From positions 569,316 through 633,315 of the forward strand of contig OZ246394.1 in NCBI GenBank assembly GCA_965230895.1: a stretch of DNA of 64,000 nt, written 5' to 3'. Positions within the stretch are counted from its first letter, which is position 1. Every line of letters starts with the position of its first letter. A model generated the notes under the pieces. It was not told the DNA's origin, ran no database searches, and saw only the letters and a list, made by a program, of their open reading frames with translations. This document shows, in pieces, positions 1-56,660 of the stretch. This stretch comes from an uncultured Gammaproteobacteria bacterium (GTDB taxonomy: Bacteria > Patescibacteriota > Microgenomatia > Levybacterales > UBA12049). Position numbers and translations under genes: made by a program.

Positions 1-192
1 GGTGATATTAAAGGTTACGTTAATGGCGAACAGGTGAATAATATTTTGGATGTTCGTATTAAACCATATGATAGTACTGTGATATTTGTTGGAGAGCAGC
101 CTGCTGAATCAGATGGTCTTCTTAGTAAAGCTGTTAAAAAAGACGAAATAGTGAAAGCTGAAAAAATGAGCGAGAACTGTGGTTCAAATTAA
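1..192 (+). CDS. 3' end of an upstream gene of unknown function (partial, runs off the left edge)
   Basis: Open frame 1 from the window edge to TAA at 190-192; the next gene starts 6 nt later. Confidence 0.4.
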   Translation, partial: GDIKGYVNGEQVNNILDVRIKPYDSTVIFVGEQPAESDGLLSKAVKKDEIVKAEKMSENCGSN

Positions 193-197
193 GCAAT

Positions 198-863
198 ATG
201 TCAGGTGAAGCAAAAATATTAATAGGAGTAAGTATCGTAACAATTGTTATGGTTATTGGAGCAGCGTTGTTACTTGGCGGCGTGTCTTCTCGAAATACTA
301 CCACTGAAGAAAAGGTGATTCTTACAAGTGAACAACAAAAAAGTCTTGCAAAGGAAGATAGTCAAAAGATTACCGTACCAAATGCTAAAGTAACAATCGT
401 TGAATTTATTGATTACGAATGTGAAGCTTGTGGTGCTGCTCATCCAATTGTTAAGCAAATTTTAGAAGAATATAAGGGTAAAGTGAATTTTGTCGTTCGA
501 AATTTCCCAAATCATAATAATTCCGTACTTGCAGCTAACATAGTAGAAGCTGCTGGTGAGCAAGGCAAATACTGGGAAATGCATAATAAACTTCTTGAAT
601 CACAACAGGAATGGGGAGAGAAAAAAGAACCACAAACAGAACTTTTTCTTAAATATGCTCAAGAATTGAATCTTGATATTGATAAAGTGAGAGCGTCATT
701 AGAAAGTAATAAATTTACTACTAAAATAAACAAAGACAAGGAAGAAGGCATTGCAATCGGCGTAAATGCTACACCCACATTTTTCATAAATGGCGAGATG
801 CAAGTTGGAGGACTTCCTTATGATGAATTTAAACAAAAAATAGAAGAGAAATTGCGCAATTAA
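198..863 (+). CDS. Membrane-anchored DsbA-family thiol:disulfide oxidoreductase (thioredoxin fold, CxxC)
   Basis: N-terminal hydrophobic anchor, then the motif FIDYECEACG (CxxC) in a thioredoxin/DsbA-like context, e.g. ATPTFFINGE near the C-terminus. Confidence 0.75.
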   Translation: MSGEAKILIGVSIVTIVMVIGAALLLGGVSSRNTTTEEKVILTSEQQKSLAKEDSQKITVPNAKVTIVEFIDYECEACGAAHPIVKQILEEYKGKVNFVVRNFPNHNNSVLAANIVEAAGEQGKYWEMHNKLLESQQEWGEKKEPQTELFLKYAQELNLDIDKVRASLESNKFTTKINKDKEEGIAIGVNATPTFFINGEMQVGGLPYDEFKQKIEEKLRN

Positions 864-905
864 AATCCAATATACAAAACATCTCAAAATCGATACAATA
901 AAATA

Positions 906-1505
906 ATGAATCATACACTGCGTAGAAAGGCACTTTTCTTATCTTACTTTACTGTTGGATATAATATAGTAGAAGGACTAGTCTCCATTGGAATAGGTTT
1001 AATGACTGGAAGTACTGCTTTGATTGGATTTGGCTCTGATAGCTTTATTGAATCTCTATCTGGAAGTGTAATGATTTGGAGATTTAGCAAACATATAGAA
1101 AACAAAGAGCATGAGGAGAAAATTGAAAGAAATGCGCAGAAACTTGTAGCCTTTACATTTTTCATCTTAGGATCGTTTGTTTTATATGAATCAGTCAAAG
1201 ATTTATTTCTTCAAGAGGCACCTGAGCCGAGCCTAATTGGCATTGTAATTGCAGTACTGTCGCTTATTATTATGCCGACATTAACCTATTTTAAATATCA
1301 AACGGGCAAGCAACTGAAATCAAAAAGTTTAGTTGCTGATTCAAAACAGACGTTGGTATGTGTGCTTATGTCTGCAGCACTTCTCATAGGATTAAGTTTA
1401 AATTATTTGTTCGGCATTTGGTGGCTTGATCCTATTGTAGGACTTATTTTTGTAGTTATTCTTTATCATGAAGGCTATGAATCTTACAAAGGTGAGGAGG
1501 ATTGA
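906..1505 (+). CDS. Cation diffusion facilitator (CDF) family transmembrane domain protein; lacks the cytoplasmic C-terminal domain
   Basis: TGSTALIGFGSDSFIESLS matches the CDF TM2 signature (TGSxALxxDAxHxLxD-like); about 6 predicted TM helices; only 199 aa. Confidence 0.6.
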   Translation: MNHTLRRKALFLSYFTVGYNIVEGLVSIGIGLMTGSTALIGFGSDSFIESLSGSVMIWRFSKHIENKEHEEKIERNAQKLVAFTFFILGSFVLYESVKDLFLQEAPEPSLIGIVIAVLSLIIMPTLTYFKYQTGKQLKSKSLVADSKQTLVCVLMSAALLIGLSLNYLFGIWWLDPIVGLIFVVILYHEGYESYKGEED

Positions 1506-1513
1506 CATAGAAG

Positions 1514-2395
1514 ATGAGTGGTCGGCATGAAGCTCCAAGCAATCTAGATAACAAATTAAAGCTAGGTATGTTCTTAAATGCCAGTTTTACCCTGTTTGAA
1601 TTTATTATTGGAGTCCTGTCAGGCAGTTTGGCTTTAATATCTGATGCTGGACATAATTTAACAGATTCACTTAGTCTTATTATCACATTTATTGCACAAA
1701 AGATTGCAAAACGGAGTGCAAACATTGAGCATACCTATGGATATGGCAGATCAACAATATTAGCTGCGCTTCTTAATGGTCTAATCTTATTCTTGTTGGC
1801 GTTTTATATCTTTTATGAAGCATACGAGCGTCTACAGAATCCTCAACCCGTTGCAGGAGGTTTGGTAGTCATTGTTGCTGTCGTTGGTGTGGTTATTAAC
1901 TTTAGTGTAGCTTCTTTATTCAGACATGATCGAGATGATCTTAATATACGAAGTGCTTATACCAATATGCTCTTTGATGCATTAGCTTCTGTTGGTGCTG
2001 TTATTGCTGGTATTCTTATAATTATAACTAAGCAGCCATACTTTGATTCATTGATAAGTATACTTATTGGGATACTACTCCTTAGAAGCAGCTGGGGTGT
2101 TGTACGAGACGCAACACATGTACTGTTAGAAGGAGTTCCAGAAGGAGTCAATGTTTCAAAGGTAAAAGAAACTATACTGAATGCACGACATGTTAAAGGT
2201 GCAGATGATTTACATGTTTGGGCAATCTCCTCAAGACACGCTGCTTTAAGTTGTCATATTGTAATCGAGGATTGTGATGTAGAGAAAAGCAGCCGAATTG
2301 TGAAAGAAATTAAGGAAAAACTTAAGAATAAATTTTCTATAGAGCATGCCACTATTGAAACAGAACTTGTTGCATGCGACCCAAAAAATGAGTAA
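1514..2395 (+). CDS. CDF family divalent cation efflux transporter (CzcD-like), full length with C-terminal domain
   Basis: LSGSLALISDAGHNLTDSLSLII and HTYGYGR motifs; TM domain followed by a cytoplasmic domain. Confidence 0.8.
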   Translation: MSGRHEAPSNLDNKLKLGMFLNASFTLFEFIIGVLSGSLALISDAGHNLTDSLSLIITFIAQKIAKRSANIEHTYGYGRSTILAALLNGLILFLLAFYIFYEAYERLQNPQPVAGGLVVIVAVVGVVINFSVASLFRHDRDDLNIRSAYTNMLFDALASVGAVIAGILIIITKQPYFDSLISILIGILLLRSSWGVVRDATHVLLEGVPEGVNVSKVKETILNARHVKGADDLHVWAISSRHAALSCHIVIEDCDVEKSSRIVKEIKEKLKNKFSIEHATIETELVACDPKNE

Positions 2396-2963
2396 AAAAC
2401 CAAATATAATAAAATTAGTAGCTTCTATTATTCTCTTACTATTTTTTGTTATACCCCCGAACGCGTTTGCTCATGATGGACAGAGTCAATTAATTGGAAA
2501 ATACTGGGTTAGTATCGAACAATACCCCCTATCACCTTTTGTAGATGAGAATGAGCAAATCTCATTCGATTTAGAAACTGTAACCCGTAAACCAGCTGAA
2601 GGGGTAAAAGGTAAGCTAATTATTAAAGAAACAACATCTGATCAGTTTGTTGGTAAAGAATCAGTAGTTGGTAGTAAGATCATTCATGAAGAAGAGGGAG
2701 TTACAGATGCCAGCGGGAGCGTTGGGATTTCCTATACATTTCAGAAAGAGGGAGTTTATGATATTGAATATGTTTGGGGTGACAATGAGGATGCAGAAAG
2801 TGCGGGATTACAAATTTTTGTTAGAGAACCGACTTCTTATTTTCTACCGCAAGAGTTAGAAAAGCGGATATGGCTATTTATAGGAATTGCGATGGCTGGA
2901 ATGGCAGCAGGGACATTTTTTACATTTGTATTACTAACAACTACTTTACATCCAAAACGATAA
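2388..2963 (+). CDS. Exported hypothetical protein with signal peptide and C-terminal TM anchor
   Basis: Internal ATG at 2388 gives MSKKPNIIKLVASIILLLFFVIPPNAFA, a Sec signal. The ORF-track start at 2346 overlaps the CDF gene. C-terminal hydrophobic helix FIGIAMAGMAAGTFFTFVLL. Confidence 0.5.
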   Translation: MSKKPNIIKLVASIILLLFFVIPPNAFAHDGQSQLIGKYWVSIEQYPLSPFVDENEQISFDLETVTRKPAEGVKGKLIIKETTSDQFVGKESVVGSKIIHEEEGVTDASGSVGISYTFQKEGVYDIEYVWGDNEDAESAGLQIFVREPTSYFLPQELEKRIWLFIGIAMAGMAAGTFFTFVLLTTTLHPKR

Positions 2964-3042
2964 GTTAAAAAAATAACTCAGGCTACTGGTCATGATTTCA
3001 TTTGCACTTTGAGGCTAGACTTCTGGAAAGCTTTGCGGTACC

Positions 3043-3231
3043 TTGTACCTGATGAATAAAGAATTACCAGAAGAAAAGATCGAAGAAACAGTCAATATGC
3101 TTGAACTATGTGCGTTAGTATTGAAGTTCTATACATCCACAAGGGAATTGAAGTATATTATTGAATTGAATACAGCAGTAAATAGACTCCACTCCCTATT
3201 CCCACGAAAGGAAAAAAATGAGTCCTGTTGA
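3043..3231 (+). CDS. Small hypothetical protein immediately upstream of, and overlapping, the recombinase; possible accessory or directionality factor
   Basis: 62-aa ORF, 14-nt overlap with the recombinase start; no recognisable motif. Confidence 0.2.
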   Translation: MYLMNKELPEEKIEETVNMLELCALVLKFYTSTRELKYIIELNTAVNRLHSLFPRKEKNESC

Positions 3232-4519
3232 GTATTGCTTGTATGCACGAAAATCAACAGAGGATGACGAGCGTCAAGCCATGTCAATCGACTCTCAGAT
3301 TAAAGAAATGACTGATTTGGCTATCAGAGACAATCTTTTCATTAAAGAAGTACGAACTGAGAAACATTCTGCTAAAGCATCTGGAAACCGCCCTGTCTTT
3401 GCCAAGCTCCTCGAAGACATTCGAAGCGGTGAATTTAGCGGTATTCTGACTTGGGCACCTGATCGACTAAGTCGTAACGCAGGAGATTTGGGTATGCTTG
3501 TCGACATGATGGATCAAGAAAAACTCCATCAGATACGAACATTCTCACAGTCATTCTCAAATAACCCAAATGAGAAGTTTTTGTTGATGATCCTTTGTTC
3601 TCAAGCAAAGCTAGAGAACGATAATCGGGGCATCAATGTAAAAAGAGGCATGCGAGCAAGATGTAGTATGGGTTGGCGACCGACAGTACCTCCTCTAGGA
3701 TATCTAAGTCAACTTGATAAATCAAACCCTCAGCTTATTATTATTGATCCTGAGCGAGCGTTTATTGTCAAACAGATATTTGATAAAGTTGCAAATCAAG
3801 GACAAAGTGGAAGAACAGTTAAACGGTGGCTTGATAGAATTGGCTTTGAGACCAGAACAGGTAAAAAGCTTGCACTTGGCAATATCTATACCATCCTCAA
3901 AAACTCCTTCTATTACGGCAAATTTGAATACCTTGTAAATAGTGGCACATGGTATGAAGGGAAACATGAACCACTGATTACAAAAGAATTATTCGATAAA
4001 GTACAAATCCAACTGCAAGTACCACCAAAAACATGGAGAAAAAACATTTTTCCTTTCAAAAAGATCTTTATTTGCGGAGGATGCAATGGAGGCATCACAG
4101 CTGAAGTAAAGCAAAAGAAATTAAAATTGGGAGGATATACAAAACACGTTTATTATCATTGCGCCAGATCAGTTGATTATGAGTGTGATGAACCCTACCT
4201 AACTGAAGAAGAACTTATCAGACAACTTATCTTTAATATTGATCAGATTAGCTTTAATCTTTCAGGAATGACAAGAAAAATTCAGGAAGATATTGAAAGA
4301 TATCATAGGCTCAAATTAGAAGTTCTAAATATGGAATATTTAACTGGAAATTTACAAGAATTAAGACCAAGGGTAGATAATGAAGAAAGACAAATAATGA
4401 TGAAGAATTATCTTAAACATATTCTAACAATTGGAACTTCAGAAGAAAGACAAGAAATCCTCACATTTATTAAAACCAAGTTCATTCTTCAAGATAGGCA
4501 CATAGTCATATCGAAATAG
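3218..4519 (+). CDS. Large serine recombinase (resolvase/invertase catalytic domain, recombinase domain and zinc ribbon)
   Basis: N-terminal YARKSTEDD with catalytic Ser and the RLSRN motif of serine recombinases. C-terminal CGGCNGG...HC zinc-ribbon-like segment. 433 aa. Confidence 0.85.
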   Translation: MSPVEYCLYARKSTEDDERQAMSIDSQIKEMTDLAIRDNLFIKEVRTEKHSAKASGNRPVFAKLLEDIRSGEFSGILTWAPDRLSRNAGDLGMLVDMMDQEKLHQIRTFSQSFSNNPNEKFLLMILCSQAKLENDNRGINVKRGMRARCSMGWRPTVPPLGYLSQLDKSNPQLIIIDPERAFIVKQIFDKVANQGQSGRTVKRWLDRIGFETRTGKKLALGNIYTILKNSFYYGKFEYLVNSGTWYEGKHEPLITKELFDKVQIQLQVPPKTWRKNIFPFKKIFICGGCNGGITAEVKQKKLKLGGYTKHVYYHCARSVDYECDEPYLTEEELIRQLIFNIDQISFNLSGMTRKIQEDIERYHRLKLEVLNMEYLTGNLQELRPRVDNEERQIMMKNYLKHILTIGTSEERQEILTFIKTKFILQDRHIVISK

Positions 4520-4699
4520 CCTCAGAAACCGCAATTTAATCTAAAGGACTCCGCAATATTTACGAATAATTTACGTTCTACGGGGCTATTACTTACGGGA
4601 TGTAAAATAGAATATGTCAGAATCGAGAGAAATTTTAGCAAGTACCAGCAAGCTAATCAAGGATAGCAGCATAGTCAATACTGAACACTATAGGATTAG

Positions 4700-4771
4700 T
4701 GAGCCCCTGGGGATTCGAACCCCAAACCAATACCTTAAGAGGGTACTGCTCTACCGTTGAGCTAGAGGCCC
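4700..4771 (-). tRNA. tRNA-Lys (anticodon CTT)
   Basis: The reverse complement folds as a cloverleaf: acceptor GGGCCTC/GGGGCTC, D-arm GCTC-AACGGTA-GAGC, anticodon loop CTCTTAA, T-arm TGGGG-TTCGAAT-CCCCA, discriminator A. Confidence 0.85.
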
Positions 4772-10980: not shown

Positions 10981-10989
10981 AAAACAAAT

Positions 10990-11065
10990 GTCATCCTAAG
11001 TCCCTGTAAGGGAGAACTTGTTTCAGGATCTTTAATGAAAGATTCCGAAATAAATTCGGAATGAC
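10990..11065 (+). repeat. Two-hairpin interspersed intergenic repeat, copy A (76 nt, with a 16-nt hairpin insertion)
   Basis: gtcatcct[aagtccctgtaaggga]gaacttgtttcaggatc tttaatgaaa gattccgaaataaattcggaatgac; related copies at 12368, 42611 and 52921. Confidence 0.7.
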
Positions 11066-11072
11066 AATAAAA

Positions 11073-12290
11073 TTATTCCAGTAAACTTTCCTGCTCTCCT
11101 CCTTCAGAAAGAAGTGTCGAAGCCTCCAAGCTTGGAAGCGATGGCAAAGAAGATCCTAGAATCCCTTGGAGCTCTCCATACATTGAGGCTGTATTCCCCA
11201 TTAACCTGTTTAATTGCATTTCCCGTTTCTTCCAGATCCGTACTGTCGAACGTTTTTCAGTTTCTAAATCCTGCGACAATGCGATCAAACTTTCAACTTG
11301 GGTTTCAAATTTATTTCGGAATCCATCTTTTGTTAGATAATTAAACAATGCTTCCAATCGCTCATCTTTATGTGCTGCCGTTGCCCGGGCGATAGCGACT
11401 TCCATCAAACCTGTACGAACGACACTCGCCAAAGGAATCGCATATTTATAACTTGTCACCCAAACACCTTCATAAAATTTGAATGTATCTATTCCTTCCG
11501 GCAAAACATCACTGACAATGATTGCGACACTTGCATCGACCCTCCTTTTATCATCACGCAATTTTGTTGTCCATGAACCACTCCATGCTTTGGTTCTTTT
11601 CGTTTCCCAAAGAATCATTCCAGCCATATTGCCAAATTTATTCTTCACTTTTTGCATCAGATCAGCACCATCAATTCCTTTTGGAACAGGGACAATTTCA
11701 TCAGTTGCAAAGACTTCACGCAATTGATTCTCTAGATCTAATTCCAGGACTTCTCCTTGCAATTGCTGAGAACCTTGTTGTGCTTTTCTTTGCGCATCTT
11801 CCAAAGCCTTTTGCGTATCTTCAAGTTTTTTCTGCAACTCAAGTTCCTTTAGCCGAGATTCTTCTTTAACTGCTTTTGAAACTTCAAGTTCAATTGATTC
11901 CCGCTCTTTCAAAAGTTTCTTTTGCATCTCAAGCTCACGCTCTTTATCTTTTTGTGTTAAGCTACGAATGTCTTTTGTTAATTCAAGAATTTGTTCTTGC
12001 AGTTCCTTATTTCGTTTGCTCGCTTCTTCCGCTTCGTTTTGAGAGTTTTTTAATTGTAACTCCAGCGTCTCTTTGGCACGCTTCATAGCACGTTCTTCGG
12101 CTTCAAGTTTTGCTTTTTCAAGCGCTTCTTTATGTTCTGCTGCTTGCTTCTCTGCTTCAAGTTGGATCTTTTCAAGTTCTGCTTTATGCGTTGCAGTCTG
12201 CTCTTCACGGATGGTCTCACGCATCTGATGAGTAAAGGCTTCGGAGAGTTCAACTGGCTTACCACAATGAGGACATTTAACGTTATTCAT
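11073..12290 (-). CDS. DUF2130-like protein: N-terminal zinc ribbon, long coiled coil, conserved C-terminal domain
   Basis: CPHCGKPV zinc-ribbon start and an E/K/Q-rich coiled coil. The C-terminal block MILWETKRTKAWSGSWTTKLRDD...IIVSDVLPEGI resembles the DUF2130 family. Confidence 0.55.
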   Translation of the reverse strand: MNNVKCPHCGKPVELSEAFTHQMRETIREEQTATHKAELEKIQLEAEKQAAEHKEALEKAKLEAEERAMKRAKETLELQLKNSQNEAEEASKRNKELQEQILELTKDIRSLTQKDKERELEMQKKLLKERESIELEVSKAVKEESRLKELELQKKLEDTQKALEDAQRKAQQGSQQLQGEVLELDLENQLREVFATDEIVPVPKGIDGADLMQKVKNKFGNMAGMILWETKRTKAWSGSWTTKLRDDKRRVDASVAIIVSDVLPEGIDTFKFYEGVWVTSYKYAIPLASVVRTGLMEVAIARATAAHKDERLEALFNYLTKDGFRNKFETQVESLIALSQDLETEKRSTVRIWKKREMQLNRLMGNTASMYGELQGILGSSLPSLPSLEASTLLSEGGEQESLLE

Positions 12291-12367
12291 AGGAATACCA
12301 TAATAAACCTAGAAAGAATATTGCGCAAGTATCGACACACCGTACAGAATAAAAAACTATATTTGGG

Positions 12368-12392
12368 GATCCTGAAACAAGTTCAGGATGAC
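12368..12392 (-). repeat. Interspersed hairpin repeat, copy B (first hairpin only, reverse orientation)
   Basis: gatcctgaaacaagttcaggatgac is the reverse complement of gtcatcctgaacttgtttcaggatc. Confidence 0.65.
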
Positions 12393-12418
12393 AGCGATAT
12401 TTATGCTAAAATAACTGT

Positions 12419-42584: not shown

Positions 42585-42610
42585 ACCCTTATTTTACAAC
42601 AAACGCATCT

Positions 42611-42670
42611 GTCATGCTGAACTTGTTTCAGCATCTTTAATTAAAGATCCCGAAATAAATTCGGGATGAC
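42611..42670 (+). repeat. Two-hairpin interspersed intergenic repeat, copy C (canonical 60-nt form)
   Basis: gtcatgctgaacttgtttcagcatc tttaattaaa gatcccgaaataaattcgggatgac: two 8-bp-stem/5-nt-loop hairpins flanked by gtcat...atgac. Confidence 0.7.
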
Positions 42671-42720
42671 ATTTAAATCTATTACGCAATCTATACTATA
42701 TACTGCTATACTAGCAGTAT

Positions 42721-43206
42721 ATGACTGAAGAGAAATACATCCGAGACGAATTAGTTTTCCACCTGACGCAAGGTCATGCACACATGCCTTTTGTGGAAGC
42801 AGTCGCTAATTTCCCAGAAGAACATTATAATACCGTTTTTACAAATGGTGACTACACCTTTTGGCATTTGCTTGAACATATCCGACGGACACAAAAAGAT
42901 ATTTTGGATTTCATGACTGATCCAGACTATAAAGAACCTTCATGGCCACGGGATTACTGGCCAGCAAAAGATGCAAAAGCGACAAAGGCTGATTGGGAGA
43001 AAACAGTTCATAGTTTTAAAGCCGATCAAGAGAAATTAAAAGCATACATTGAAGATCCAAAGACAGATTTATACGAAAAGATTGCAAGAGGCACCGGTCA
43101 AACAGTATTCCGGGAAATTAGGGTAATCGTTGATCACAATGCTTACCACATTGGAGAGTTTGCAATTATGCGACAAGTCCATGATACATGGGGGAAGAAT
43201 CACTAG
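42721..43206 (+). CDS. DinB/YfiT-like (DinB_2) putative metal-dependent enzyme
   Basis: Four-helix-bundle-family His motifs (WHLLEHIRRTQ, HNAYHIGE); 161 aa. Confidence 0.6.
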   Translation: MTEEKYIRDELVFHLTQGHAHMPFVEAVANFPEEHYNTVFTNGDYTFWHLLEHIRRTQKDILDFMTDPDYKEPSWPRDYWPAKDAKATKADWEKTVHSFKADQEKLKAYIEDPKTDLYEKIARGTGQTVFREIRVIVDHNAYHIGEFAIMRQVHDTWGKNH

Positions 43207-52914: not shown

Positions 52915-52920
52915 TGTAAT

Positions 52921-52945
52921 GTCATCCTGAACTTGTTTCAGGATC
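52921..52945 (+). repeat. Interspersed hairpin repeat, copy D (first hairpin only)
   Basis: gtcatcctgaacttgtttcaggatc, 10 nt upstream of the next start codon. Confidence 0.65.
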
Positions 52946-52954
52946 TTTTAATAA

Positions 52955-54423: not shown

Positions 54424-54442
54424 AAACATATGCATTCCCCTA

Positions 54443-54925
54443 TTATCGAGTAACTTGGATTGGTGGAGTATATGCACTTGGTGCTGAAACTGTTATTCTA
54501 TTATTTGTATCTCTTGTAATTGTGTAACCTGTGTTCCATGTTCCTGCGCATTCACCAGCTTCAACTCCTGCCTGATCATTAAGTGTTGGATCCATTGGAA
54601 GTGCTGGCATATAATTTGGTACTAACTGAGCACAAAGAGCACCTAAATCGGCCCCACTTTGCAATGGGGTTGGGTCATTTACATCCAAAGCCTGAACAAG
54701 CGGCGGTAATTGCCCAGTATTTGATGCTGTATATTGTCCGATTGCATTAAGAATCTGAGTAACATCACTTCGACGCTTTGTATCATTTGCTTGGCCAAAT
54801 TGTCGTGCAGGGTTAATAGCGATAAGTGTGATTGCTAAAAGGATAGCGAGGATACCGATTACAACGAGTAATTCGATGAGTGTGAAACCTTTTTGGTCTT
54901 TGTTAAATATTTGTCGGACAGTCAT
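54443..54925 (-). CDS. Type IV major pilin, paralog 1
   Basis: Class III leader and cleavage site NKDQKG|FTLIELLVVIGILAIL with Glu5; about 160 aa; C-terminal Cys pair. Confidence 0.85.
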   Translation of the reverse strand: MTVRQIFNKDQKGFTLIELLVVIGILAILLAITLIAINPARQFGQANDTKRRSDVTQILNAIGQYTASNTGQLPPLVQALDVNDPTPLQSGADLGALCAQLVPNYMPALPMDPTLNDQAGVEAGECAGTWNTGYTITRDTNNRITVSAPSAYTPPIQVTR

Positions 54926-54970
54926 GTTTTGTTTTGATCAAGTTATCTTGATCTGTATCTATTATTGTCA
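54926..54970 (-). promoter_or_regulatory. Conserved pilin 5' leader with perfect 18-nt palindrome gatcaagttatcttgatc (54936..54953)
   Basis: A nearly identical 45-nt stretch precedes both pilin start codons; the second copy is at 56561..56605. Confidence 0.5.
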
Positions 54971-55076
54971 GAGTCGGTATATCCTGTCAATATGTCTAAA
55001 TAGTCAAAAATATATTTAAATAGATCAGTTTACTTTTCAAGAAATTATTTGAATCTAAAAAAGATAATGATGTATT

Positions 55077-56042: not shown

Positions 56043-56083
56043 AAAGAAGAGTATACAAAAGAATTGTAAAGATTATTGAAGAA

Positions 56084-56560
56084 TTAGCGAGTTACTTGGA
56101 TTGGAGGAGTGTATGCACTTGGCGCTGATACTGTTATTCTATTATTTGCATCTTTTGCAACTGTATATCCAGTGTCCCATGTGCCCGCGCAGTCACCAGC
56201 TTCAACTCCAGCTTGATCGTTAAGAGTTGGATCCATTGGAAGTGCTGGCATATAATTTGGAACTAATTGTCCACAGAGGGATGGGAAATTTGTACTATTG
56301 AGTGCGGCTGAACCACTTGCAAGAGCTTGAACATTTGGAGGCAATTGGCCTGTATTAGATGCTGTGTATTGTCCGATTGCGTTAAGAATCTGTGTTACAT
56401 CACTTCGACGCTTTGTATCGTTTGCTTGTCCGAATTGTCGTGCTGGATTAATTGCGATAAGAGTGATAGCTAAAAGAATAGCGAGGATACCAATTACAAC
56501 GAGTAATTCTATGAGTGTGAAACCTTTTTGATTTTTATTAAATACTTCTCGGACAGTCAT
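56084..56560 (-). CDS. Type IV major pilin, paralog 2
   Basis: MTVREVFNKNQKG|FTLIELLVVIGIL. N- and C-terminal thirds are near-identical to paralog 1. The ORF-track start at 56614 reads through the conserved untranslated leader. Confidence 0.85.
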   Translation of the reverse strand: MTVREVFNKNQKGFTLIELLVVIGILAILLAITLIAINPARQFGQANDTKRRSDVTQILNAIGQYTASNTGQLPPNVQALASGSAALNSTNFPSLCGQLVPNYMPALPMDPTLNDQAGVEAGDCAGTWDTGYTVAKDANNRITVSAPSAYTPPIQVTR

Positions 56561-56660
56561 ATTGTTTTTGATCAAGTTATCTTGATCTGTATCCATTATT
56601 GTCATAATGCTCAACTGTTGTCAATAGAGCAAAAATTGAAAAAAAATCGAAAATTCAAGG

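What the first reader, a model, noticed from the sequence alone, without database searches (positions are those of the whole stretch)
42611..42670. Interspersed two-hairpin intergenic repeat family with compensatory base changes (four or more copies)
The canonical 60-nt unit gtcatGctgaacttgtttcagCatc-tttaattaaa-gatCccgaaataaattcggGatgac consists of two 8-bp-stem/5-nt-loop hairpins that are near inverse copies of each other. It is bounded by gtcat...atgac. Related copies are at 10990..11065 (full length, with an insertion), 12368..12392 (first hairpin, inverted), and 52921..52945 (first hairpin). Between copies, stem positions change in pairs: atCctgaa/ttcagGat versus atGctgaa/ttcagCat, and atTccgaa/ttcggAat versus atCccgaa/ttcggGat. 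That pattern argues for selection on the secondary structure (RNA or cruciform) rather than neutral decay. Copies occur downstream of stop codons, in a divergent promoter region, and 10 nt upstream of a start codon. This resembles REP/BIME- or MITE-like elements. It could act as a terminator or mRNA stabiliser, a binding site for a REP-associated transposase-like protein, or a small structured RNA.
Basis: seen in the sequence. Interest (0 to 1): 0.6.

Follow-up and report, generated by a model that had tools for sequence, protein, structure and literature searches.

The report
CGTC-tagged hairpin repeats (REP-like) in CPR
The repeats are real copies of an already described family of small tagged DNA hairpins (CGTC-type REPs, the kind cut as single-stranded DNA by small Ssn nucleases), here found for the first time in a Levybacteria-like ultra-small bacterium.

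Summary
The window has four loci with six copies of one 28-nt module: TGTC tag, 8-bp stem starting AT, 5-nt loop, C-led tail. Two loci are inverted "tags-out" dimers (A, C) and two are singletons (B, D); none is expected by chance.

On 446 modules from 240 foreign loci, three stem positions covary through Watson-Crick pairs only. G·T wobble is not enriched, which points to a DNA hairpin or a both-strand constraint rather than an RNA.

The module fits the CGTC-tagged REPs of Di Nocera et al. 2013, family CGTC-2. These are not linked to RAYT transposases. Their CGTC-1 relatives (Neisseria dRS3/NTS) are the ssDNA targets of small GIY-YIG nucleases, the Ssn family (Chenal et al. 2025).

In foreign loci, this CTGAA hairpin type directly flanks Ssn-like genes (4 of 6 within 30 nt, p=6e-4). 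Hairpin type also tracks nuclease clade.

A syntenic relative (~79% nt identity) has empty sites at A, B and D and a decayed remnant at C. The copies are therefore insertions, not conserved regulators.

No Ssn gene lies in the window, and the rest of the genome could not be searched. Verdict: a known kind, a new host, modest interest.

The parts
42610..42637 (+). Module C1: tag TGTC, stem ATGCTGAA/TTCAGCAT, loop CTTGT, tail CTT
   Evidence: CM R1 scores 46.8 bits, E=9e-11.
42635..42646 (.). Dimer spacer CTTTAATTAAAG. It is palindromic and forms a third small hairpin in the DNA fold.
   Evidence: the DNA minimum-energy fold is a three-way structure of -15.6 kcal/mol, z=-6.4.
42644..42671 (-). 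Module C2: tag TGTC, stem ATCCCGAA/TTCGGGAT, loop TTTAT, tail CTT. With C1 it forms a tags-out (HH) heterodimer.
   Evidence: CM scores 44.2 bits. [quoted passage not shown]
10989..11032 (+). Module A1: TGTC-ATCCT[insert]GAA-CTTGT-TTCAGGAT-CTT, interrupted in its 5' stem arm
   Evidence: The CM detects only the fragment 11014-11024.
10998..11013 (+). 16-nt insert AAGTCCCTGTAAGGGA inside module A1. It is a 5-bp hairpin and does not recur in any fetched locus.
11039..11066 (-). Module A2: TGTC-ATTCCGAA-TTTAT-TTCGGAAT-CTT. With A1 it forms an HH heterodimer that fills the 92-nt gap between two minus-strand genes.
   Evidence: CM scores 42.8 bits. The orthologous gap in the relative L306 is 6 nt.
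12366..12393 (-). Module B, a singleton: TGTC-ATCCTGAA-CTTGT-TTCAGGAT-CCC, in a divergent gap
   Evidence: CM scores 46.3 bits. The relative's gap is 63 nt against 128 nt here and has no module.
52920..52947 (+). Module D, a singleton: TGTC-ATCCTGAA-CTTGT-TTCAGGAT-CTT, in a 40-nt gap between two plus-strand genes
   Evidence: CM scores 47.6 bits. The relative's gap is 20 nt and has no module.

Best explanation
These are CGTC-tagged REP elements of the CGTC-2 (CTGAA-stem) type. Each is a short DNA hairpin with an unpaired (C/T)GTC tag 5' of an 8-bp stem and an unpaired C 3' of it. They occur singly or as inverted tags-out dimers.

They are dispersed, insertion-like DNA, not conserved regulators of the neighbouring genes.

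The hairpin most likely matters as single-stranded DNA. By homology of architecture with the Neisseria NTS/dRS3 repeats, it is the recognition and cleavage site of a small single-domain GIY-YIG nuclease of the Ssn family. That enzyme binds the folded palindrome plus the following C and cuts near the GTC tag, on the forward strand only. A tags-out dimer puts one cuttable module on each strand.

Shown here: family membership, covariation, insertion polymorphism, and linkage of this hairpin type to Ssn-like genes in other genomes.

Inferred: that an Ssn enzyme acts on these copies in this genome, and that such an enzyme, or the module-ssn-module unit, is what spreads them.
For: **Anatomy.** The six modules carry a TGTC tag, an AT-first 8-bp stem, a 5-nt loop and a C-led tail. 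Both dimers are tags-out. This matches the CGTC family definition in PMC3733652. That paper's supplement lists a CGTC-2 insert in Sulfurovum encoding RHSELVSGS. That peptide is consistent with CGT CAT TCT GAA CTT GTT TCA GGA TC, my own back-translation.

- Tag -1 base: C 232, T 174.
- Tails: CCA 110, CTC 103, CTT 78.
- Dimers: 100 tags-out, 22 tags-in, 19 tandem.

**Covariation.**
- Stem position 2: T-A 372, C-G 62.
- Stem position 3: C-G 203, G-C 153, T-A 60.
- Stem position 5: T-A 345, C-G 83.
- G·T wobble occurs only 1-5 times per position.
- The invariant unpaired bases are GTC and, in at least 90% of modules, the C after the stem. SsnA needs those same positions for cleavage and binding (PMC11893778).

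**Enzyme link.**
- Small GIY-YIG genes (PF01541, about 95 aa) lie within 30 nt of CTGAA modules in 4 of 6 cases. The background rate is 8%, giving p=6e-4.
- One is a clean module-gene-module unit in Pedobacter (L083). One is in a CPR bacterium (L051).
- Searching from the protein side, 15 of 17 close homologs (tblastn E <= 1e-16) in viral contigs are flanked by (C/T)GTC-tagged hairpins, most of the canonical NTS type.
- Hairpin type tracks nuclease clade in a rough tree.

**Mobility.** The syntenic relative (~79% nt identity) has no module at sites A, B or D. At site C it has an internally deleted remnant.
Against: - No Ssn-like or other GIY-YIG small ORF is in the 64-kb window. The remaining ~1.5 Mb of the genome could not be searched.
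- The modules do not match the published degenerate SRM search pattern: 0 matches in the window, and only 3 of 449 CTGAA modules elsewhere. Assigning them to Ssn therefore goes beyond what the paper tested.
- No enzyme has been shown to insert such hairpins. Ssn is known only to cut.
- The 'close' relative is a different species (~79% nt identity), so empty sites could reflect loss as well as gain.
- The nuclease tree is a small neighbour-joining tree with one exception (L114).
- In this genome the tails are CTTT-rich, and the modules pass a loose terminator scan.
Confidence: 0.7

Rival explanations
1. RNA-level elements: weak intrinsic terminators or 3' mRNA-stabilising hairpins placed after stop codons.
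For: - Four of the five intact modules are followed by CTTT(T/A/C)A tracts and pass a loose terminator scan.
- A and D start 6 nt after a stop codon.
- PMC3733652 argues that many REPs are transcribed.
Against: - B and C lie between divergent gene starts.
- A and D were inserted into junctions that are 6 and 20 nt long in the relative, that is, inside likely operons.
- G·U pairs are not enriched.
- Singletons in co-directional gaps elsewhere show no orientation preference: 26 same, 41 opposite, p=0.09.
- The unpaired GTC tag is invariant, which a terminator does not need.
- No Rfam family matches.
Confidence: 0.12
2. Inert relics: hairpins left by a past invasion, with no enzyme and no function in this genome today.
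For: - No nuclease or transposase gene is in the window.
- One module is disrupted by an insert.
- The relative's copy at site C is decaying by internal deletion.
- PMC3733652 raises extinction of CGTC elements as a possibility.
Against: - Five of the six modules have perfect stems and intact tags.
- Three sites differ from the relative.
- 81% of genomes with more than 200 SRM repeats carry an ssn gene (PMC11893778).
Confidence: 0.15
3. REPINs mobilised by a RAYT (a domesticated IS200/IS605-type tyrosine transposase).
For: They are inverted dimers of short palindromes with an unpaired tag, as in REPINs. Their hairpins also look like single-stranded DNA structures.
Against: - The tag is (C/T)GTC, not GTAG.
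- RAYT genes are never flanked by CGTC repeats in PMC3733652.
- No HUH-Y1 motif pair occurs in any window ORF.
- No recurrent gene lies between module pairs among ORFs of at least 100 aa, a cut-off that misses the ~95-aa GIY-YIG genes.
- The genes actually flanked by the modules are GIY-YIG.
Confidence: 0.03

Closest known systems
CGTC-tagged REPs, family CGTC-2 (Di Nocera, De Gregorio & Rocco 2013, BMC Genomics 14:522)
   Same: - The tag is CGTC, 'changed to TGTC in many repeats'.
- The stem is 8 bp and begins with complementary A/T then T/A, and the loop is 5 nt.
- There is a short unpaired C-led tail.
- Tags-out (HH) dimers predominate, and CGTC-2 dimers are mostly heterodimers.
- Sub-families differ by complementary stem changes.
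- They are mostly intergenic.
- They have no RAYT.
- A listed CGTC-2 insert encodes a peptide (RHSELVSGS) consistent with the same DNA motif.
   Different: [quoted passage not shown] This window is from a Levybacteria-like CPR bacterium.
- My scan also hits Melainabacteria, Nitrospirota, Elusimicrobia, several CPR groups, a Nanoarchaeota MAG and viral contigs.
- The tail here is CTT or CCC rather than CCA.
- The paper's consensus figure is not held, so the match rests on its text and supplement.
NTS/SRM hairpins and Ssn nucleases (Chenal et al. 2025, Nat Commun 16:2388)
   Same: - Layout CGTCAT-palindrome-ATC-tail.
- The conserved unpaired positions are the ones SsnA needs.
- The hairpin is read on one strand only.
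- The repeat-gene-repeat unit is seen with CTGAA modules too (L083, L114).
- Homologs of the flanked small GIY-YIG protein are themselves flanked by canonical NTS-type hairpins.
   Different: - The stem is CTGAA/CCGAA rather than CCCGC, and the loop is 5 nt rather than 4.
- The modules fail the published SRM search pattern.
- No ssn gene was seen in the window.
- No biochemical test exists for this hairpin class.
GTAG REPs / REPINs / BIMEs with RAYT transposases (E. coli, Pseudomonas)
   Same: They are short tagged palindromes in many intergenic copies, often as inverted pairs, with a likely single-stranded DNA substrate and a domesticated nuclease or transposase partner.
   Different: The tag, the sequence and the enzyme superfamily all differ (HUH-Y1 against GIY-YIG). 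GTAG families are usually specific to a genus, whereas this 25-mer is nearly identical across phyla.

Membership tests
CGTC-tagged REP superfamily (CGTC-2) | Unpaired CGTC (or TGTC/CCTC) tag at one end of the palindrome | tested here: met
   TGTC precedes all six window modules. In 453 foreign hairpins the base before GTC is C 232 and T 174.
CGTC-tagged REP superfamily (CGTC-2) | 8-bp stem starting with complementary A-T then T-A, and a 5-nt loop | tested here: met
   One search finds an 8-bp stem and 5-nt loop with 0 mismatches in the five intact modules. One search gives the pair counts.
CGTC-tagged REP superfamily (CGTC-2) | Short unpaired tail, consensus CCA | tested here: inconclusive
   The first tail base C is kept. 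The window's tails are CTT (five modules) and CCC (one). Elsewhere CCA is commonest (110), followed by CTC and CTT.
CGTC-tagged REP superfamily (CGTC-2) | Mostly tags-out (HH) dimers; heterodimers in CGTC-2 | tested here: met
   Both window dimers are HH heterodimers. In foreign loci there are 100 HH, 22 TT and 19 HT dimers.
CGTC-tagged REP superfamily (CGTC-2) | Many dispersed copies per genome | not testable with these tools
   There are four loci in 64 kb, and Logan contigs break at the repeats. The whole genome was not available for a count.
Ssn-related motif (SRM/NTS) with Ssn nuclease | Match to the published SRM pattern HGTCWYN(0-2)YYVSBRHN(0-5)WNVSBRGN(0-2)RNCYNB | tested here: not met
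   There are 0 matches in the window, and only 3 of 449 CTGAA modules in foreign loci overlap a match. A canonical NTS matches as a control.
Ssn-related motif (SRM/NTS) with Ssn nuclease | Conserved GTC just 5' of the palindrome and C just 3' of it | tested here: met
   G2, T3 and C4 are invariant, and C26 is kept in at least 90% of 148 sequences.
Ssn-related motif (SRM/NTS) with Ssn nuclease | The same hairpin type flanks a small single-domain GIY-YIG (Ssn-like) gene | tested here: met
   This holds in other genomes only: L083, L114, L085, L051 and L317.
Ssn-related motif (SRM/NTS) with Ssn nuclease | An ssn gene is present in this genome | not testable with these tools
   None is found in the window by phmmer on six-frame ORFs. 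The rest of the 1.61-Mb genome could not be fetched.
Ssn-related motif (SRM/NTS) with Ssn nuclease | Strand-specific ssDNA binding and cleavage at the hairpin | not testable with these tools
   This needs biochemistry. Indirect support: the covariation is Watson-Crick only.
GTAG REP / REPIN with RAYT | GTAG tag and a flanked Y1 (HUH) transposase gene | tested here: not met
   The tag is TGTC. No HUH plus Y motif pair occurs in the window's ORFs. No recurrent gene lies between module pairs, among ORFs of at least 100 aa.
Intrinsic terminator | GC-rich stem followed by a U-run, oriented with transcription at gene ends | tested here: inconclusive
   The modules pass a loose scan. However, the stems have only 3-4 G-C pairs, two loci are in divergent gaps, and no orientation bias is seen elsewhere.
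Rfam RNA families | Score at or above a family's gathering threshold | tested here: not met
   Searches return only tRNAs and an S15 leader. One search gives nothing better than E=0.08.

The most novel reading that the evidence does not exclude
The CTGAA-stem hairpin is a distinct specificity class of the Ssn nuclease/hairpin system that the published SRM search pattern misses. It has its own nuclease clade. Its 25-nt core is nearly identical in many phyla: CPR groups, a DPANN archaeal MAG, Bacteroidota, Sphingomonadales, spirochaetes, Melainabacteria and phage-like contigs. That would imply recent spread between phyla of a small selfish or domesticated module-ssn-module unit. In DNA-scavenging CPR bacteria, such a unit could gate the uptake or recombination of foreign single-stranded DNA.
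Probability: 0.4. Interest if true: 0.5.

Novelty: new member of a known kind. Interest (0 to 1): 0.3.

Why it matters
For this window the answer is mostly tidy. The repeats need no new category, and they should not be annotated as RNA genes, terminators or RAYT-type REPs.

Three smaller points go beyond the literature I could read.
- This hairpin family reaches far more lineages than the five phyla reported in 2013, including CPR bacteria.
- The CTGAA class escapes the 2025 SRM search pattern, yet it is physically linked to Ssn-like genes. Censuses of Ssn/hairpin pairs are therefore probably incomplete.
- Comparison with a syntenic relative shows gain or loss at three sites and decay at a fourth. 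This gives a natural system for asking how such hairpins spread, which is still unknown.

Tried and rejected
- **Rfam.** Searched at gathering threshold on the window and on 18 foreign loci, and by E-value on the unit. Only tRNAs, an S15 leader and chance miRNA-like hits came back.
- **Literature by sequence or peptide string.** Nothing relevant.
- **RAYT/HUH search in the window.** No candidates. The Pfam scan of 61 ORFs listed only its top 25 families, and none is a transposase.
- **Recurrent genes between or near modules, using ORFs of at least 100 aa.** Only phage structural genes from prophage-like contigs turned up. This cut-off missed the ~95-aa GIY-YIG genes, which were found later with a lower cut-off.
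- **Metagenome scan with the DinB-like protein, looking for empty sites.** The 57 loci were not syntenic. They show only that the repeats are not linked to that gene.
- **Half-module look-alike at 11303-11330 inside the DUF2130 gene.** It is conserved coding sequence in relatives, so a chance match.
- **The 16-nt insert of module A1.** It does not recur anywhere.
- **Target-site duplications.** None is convincing at site A.
- **PDB and NCBIfam searches with the flanked GIY-YIG proteins.** No informative match.
- **Supplementary tables of the Ssn paper.** Not held.
- **A second protein-side scan.** It added one full-length homolog, which is also flanked by tagged hairpins.
- **Reaching this genome's 1.61-Mb contig.** Look-ups returned only short Logan contigs.

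Full report
**1. Is it there?**

Yes. The sequence at 42611-42670 reads GTCATGCTGAACTTGTTTCAGCATC-TTTAATTAAA-GATCCCGAAATAAATTCGGGATGAC. The other three places are as reported. Pattern searches allowing up to three mismatches recover exactly these copies, and shuffled sequence gives none.

The two hairpin types are a single module read on opposite strands. The module is a tag (T)GTC, an 8-bp stem AT.C[CT]GAA, a 5-nt loop [CT]TT[GA]T, the complementary arm, and a tail that starts with C.

- Locus C (42610-42671) and locus A (10989-11066) are inverted dimers with the tags on the outside.
- Locus B (12366-12393, minus strand) and locus D (52920-52947) are single modules.
- In A, the first module is split by a 16-nt insert (10998-11013) that is itself a small hairpin.

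I built a covariance model from 148 module sequences and ran it over the whole window with filters off. It finds the five intact modules at 43-48 bits and nothing else above noise.

**2. Where it sits**

The window has 38% G+C and is tightly packed with genes.

- A fills 76 of the 92 nt between a DUF2130 gene and an RNase HII gene on the minus strand.
- B and C lie between divergently transcribed genes.
- D lies in a 40-nt gap between a cupin gene and a sugar isomerase gene.

Protein matches place the organism among the Candidate Phyla Radiation, close to Levybacteria. Short-read contigs of the same genome begin and end inside the repeats. This is expected of a sequence that is multi-copy in the genome or sample.

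**3. The same module elsewhere**

The hits come from Sphingomonadales, Bacteroidota, Treponema, Melainabacteria, Nitrospirota, Elusimicrobia, Rickettsia, several CPR groups and one Nanoarchaeota MAG. It reached the limit again in viral contigs. About one chance match was expected in the genome collection.

In these 240 loci:

- The base before GTC is C (232) or T (174).
- The commonest tails are CCA, CTC and CTT.
- Neighbouring modules are tags-out in 100 cases, tags-in in 22 and tandem in 19, with spacers of 6-119 nt.

**4. Covariation, and what kind**

I collected 446 modules using an anchor that leaves the tested positions free.

- Stem position 2: T-A 372, C-G 62.
- Stem position 3: C-G 203, G-C 153, T-A 60.
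- Stem position 5: T-A 345, C-G 83.
- The 150 modules that did not match the scan pattern show the same picture.

The formal count gives 98.5% paired cells. It finds 170 double-change cells against 48.7 in shuffles, with 0 of 500 shuffles reaching that value, and pairing collapses when the partners are slid.

Two details matter. G·T pairs (1-5 per position) are no commoner than other mismatches. The unpaired GTC and the C after the stem are the most conserved bases. An RNA hairpin would tolerate wobble pairs and would not need a fixed unpaired tag. The pattern fits a DNA hairpin that has to fold on either strand and is read by a protein.

Loop positions 1 and 4 also covary (C..G 309, T..A 119). 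I cannot explain this.

Folding the dimer as DNA gives a three-way structure: the tags pair with each other, and there are two module hairpins plus a spacer hairpin (-15.6 kcal/mol, z=-6.4). Folded as RNA, it prefers one long imperfect hairpin.

**5. What is known**

Di Nocera, De Gregorio and Rocco (2013) split tagged REPs into GTAG and CGTC super-families. Their CGTC elements have these properties:

[quoted passage not shown] - loops of 4-5 nt;
- a short tail (CCA);
- mostly tags-out dimers, with heterodimers in CGTC-2;
- sub-families that differ by complementary stem changes;
- presence in five phyla;
- no associated transposase.

Their supplement lists a CGTC-2 insert in Sulfurovum encoding RHSELVSGS. 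That peptide is consistent with CGT CAT TCT GAA CTT GTT TCA GGA TC, the module found here; the back-translation is mine, since the DNA is not given. CGTC-1 corresponds to the Neisseria dRS3 repeat, and CGTC-1 and CGTC-4 correspond to Rickettsia RPE-6 and RPE-4.

The second relevant paper is Chenal et al. (2025). The 28-nt Neisseria NTS, CGTCATTCCCGCGMAVGCGGGAATCYRG, contains dRS3. It is bound and cut, as single-stranded DNA only and on one strand only, by SsnA. SsnA is a ~100-aa single-domain GIY-YIG protein (cd10448).

- Binding depends on the palindrome and most of all on the C right after it.
- Cleavage depends on the three bases before it.
- The gene is typically flanked by the repeats.
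- 81% of genomes with more than 200 such motifs carry a homolog.
- In Neisseria the enzyme lowers transformation by NTS-bearing DNA.

**6. Does the Ssn link hold for this hairpin class?**

The window's modules do not match the paper's degenerate SRM pattern, and only 3 of 449 CTGAA-type modules elsewhere do. The published census therefore does not cover them. Three results nevertheless tie them to the same enzyme family.

(a) Among the foreign loci fetched by the hairpin pattern, six small GIY-YIG ORFs of one family occur, and four lie within 30 nt of a CTGAA module. The background rate for ORFs is 8%, giving p=6e-4. In Pedobacter (L083) the gene is bracketed by CGTCACCCTGAATTTATTTCAGGGTC and GATGCTGAAATAAATTCAGCATGACG, with the tags outward. 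In a Kerfeldbacteria contig (L051) the gene starts 11 nt after a module. These proteins match Pfam GIY-YIG only.

(b) Searching from the protein side, 15 of 17 close homologs (tblastn E <= 1e-16) in viral contigs are flanked by (C/T)GTC-tagged hairpins. Most are CGTC-ATTCCCGC-GAAG-GCGGGAAT-CCA, about 42 nt upstream and 32 nt downstream. That is the canonical NTS type. One homolog has CTGAA modules, and a further homolog is flanked likewise. The flanked protein family is therefore the Ssn family by its defining architecture.

(c) In a small neighbour-joining tree, hairpin type follows nuclease clade. Five of the six CTGAA-associated proteins group together.

**7. Conserved regulator or insertion?**

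A syntenic relative (GCA_964507055.1) shares 93-96% protein identity for the genes used and about 79% nucleotide identity overall.

| Site | Gap in this window | Gap in the relative | State in the relative |
|---|---|---|---|
| A | 92 nt | 6 nt | no module |
| B | 128 nt | 63 nt | no module |
| D | 40 nt | 20 nt | no module |
| C | 136 nt | 101 nt | remnant |

At site C the relative keeps TGTCATCCCAATTGAAACAAGTTCAGCATGACA. This is the same dimer with about 29 nt deleted from its middle.

No intact module occurs in the roughly 60 kb of relative DNA that I fetched. More distant relatives carry other palindromes in the same gaps, or CGTC-tagged hairpins with different stems.

The copies are therefore gained, lost and eroded on the timescale of species divergence. 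They are not needed by the neighbouring genes.

**8. Other readings**

The modules with CTTT tails pass a loose terminator scan. But the stems are weak, two loci face gene starts, and A and D sit in what are operon junctions in the relative.

In the foreign loci the elements lie in co-directional gaps 124 times, convergent gaps 40 times and divergent gaps 29 times. The gap-type background is 74%, 13% and 13%. Single modules show no orientation preference.

No HUH-Y1 signature occurs in the window. No Rfam family matches.

**9. Verdict**

The family is already described, however. Its likely partner is a GIY-YIG single-strand nuclease rather than a RAYT, and the selection looks like DNA-level, not RNA-level.

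What is new is the host (a Levybacteria-like CPR genome) and a much wider spread than was reported. The evidence here also links the CTGAA class to Ssn-like genes even though it falls outside the published search pattern.

Whether this genome encodes the nuclease, and how the hairpins are copied to new sites, remain open.

Noticed in passing
window 42698-42725: A perfect 9-bp inverted repeat, ATATACTGC-tagtata-GCAGTATAT, ends in the ATG of the DinB-like gene (42721). It is only partly kept in the relative L311. It may be an operator.
   Followed up: partly
window 1-4771: A large serine recombinase gene (3218-4519) lies beside tRNA-Lys(ctt) (4699-4771). The block to its left carries a DsbA-like gene and two cation-efflux genes and has no synteny with the relative, whose alignment starts at the tRNA. 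This may be an integrated island.
   Followed up: partly
window 54442-55013 and 56083-56647: Two paralogous pilin-like genes (N-terminal methylation motif), together with their upstream regions, are 74-87% identical. This looks like a local duplication.
   Followed up: no
L309 4814-4922: An 83%-identity relative carries an unrelated long palindrome (ATTCTTCGAGCGAAGTCGAGAA ... TTCTCAACTTCGCTCGAAGAAT) in the same gene junction as site A. This gap seems to attract palindromic inserts.
   Followed up: no
L315 7715-7783 and 20370-20395: An 87%-identity relative has CGTC/TGTC-tagged hairpins with CTGG stems. One of them lies inside a 2990-aa ORF.
   Followed up: no
module loop; alignment A2 columns 13 and 16: Loop positions 1 and 4 covary (C..G 309, T..A 119 of 446). 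They behave like a ninth pair closing a two-base loop, with the fifth loop base bulged. I have no explanation.
   Followed up: partly
L311 9948-9973: At site C the relative keeps both tags but has lost about 29 nt from the middle of the dimer. This is an example of palindrome erosion by internal deletion.
   Followed up: yes
L121, L335 (Logan contigs of this genome): Short-read contigs begin and end inside the repeats at sites A, C and D. The repeats are therefore fragmenting assemblies of this organism.
   Followed up: partly
L090, L115, L042, L008 (foreign loci): Some modules elsewhere carry extra hairpins or long inserts in their loop or stem, as module A1 does here. The hairpins may themselves be insertion targets.
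   Followed up: no
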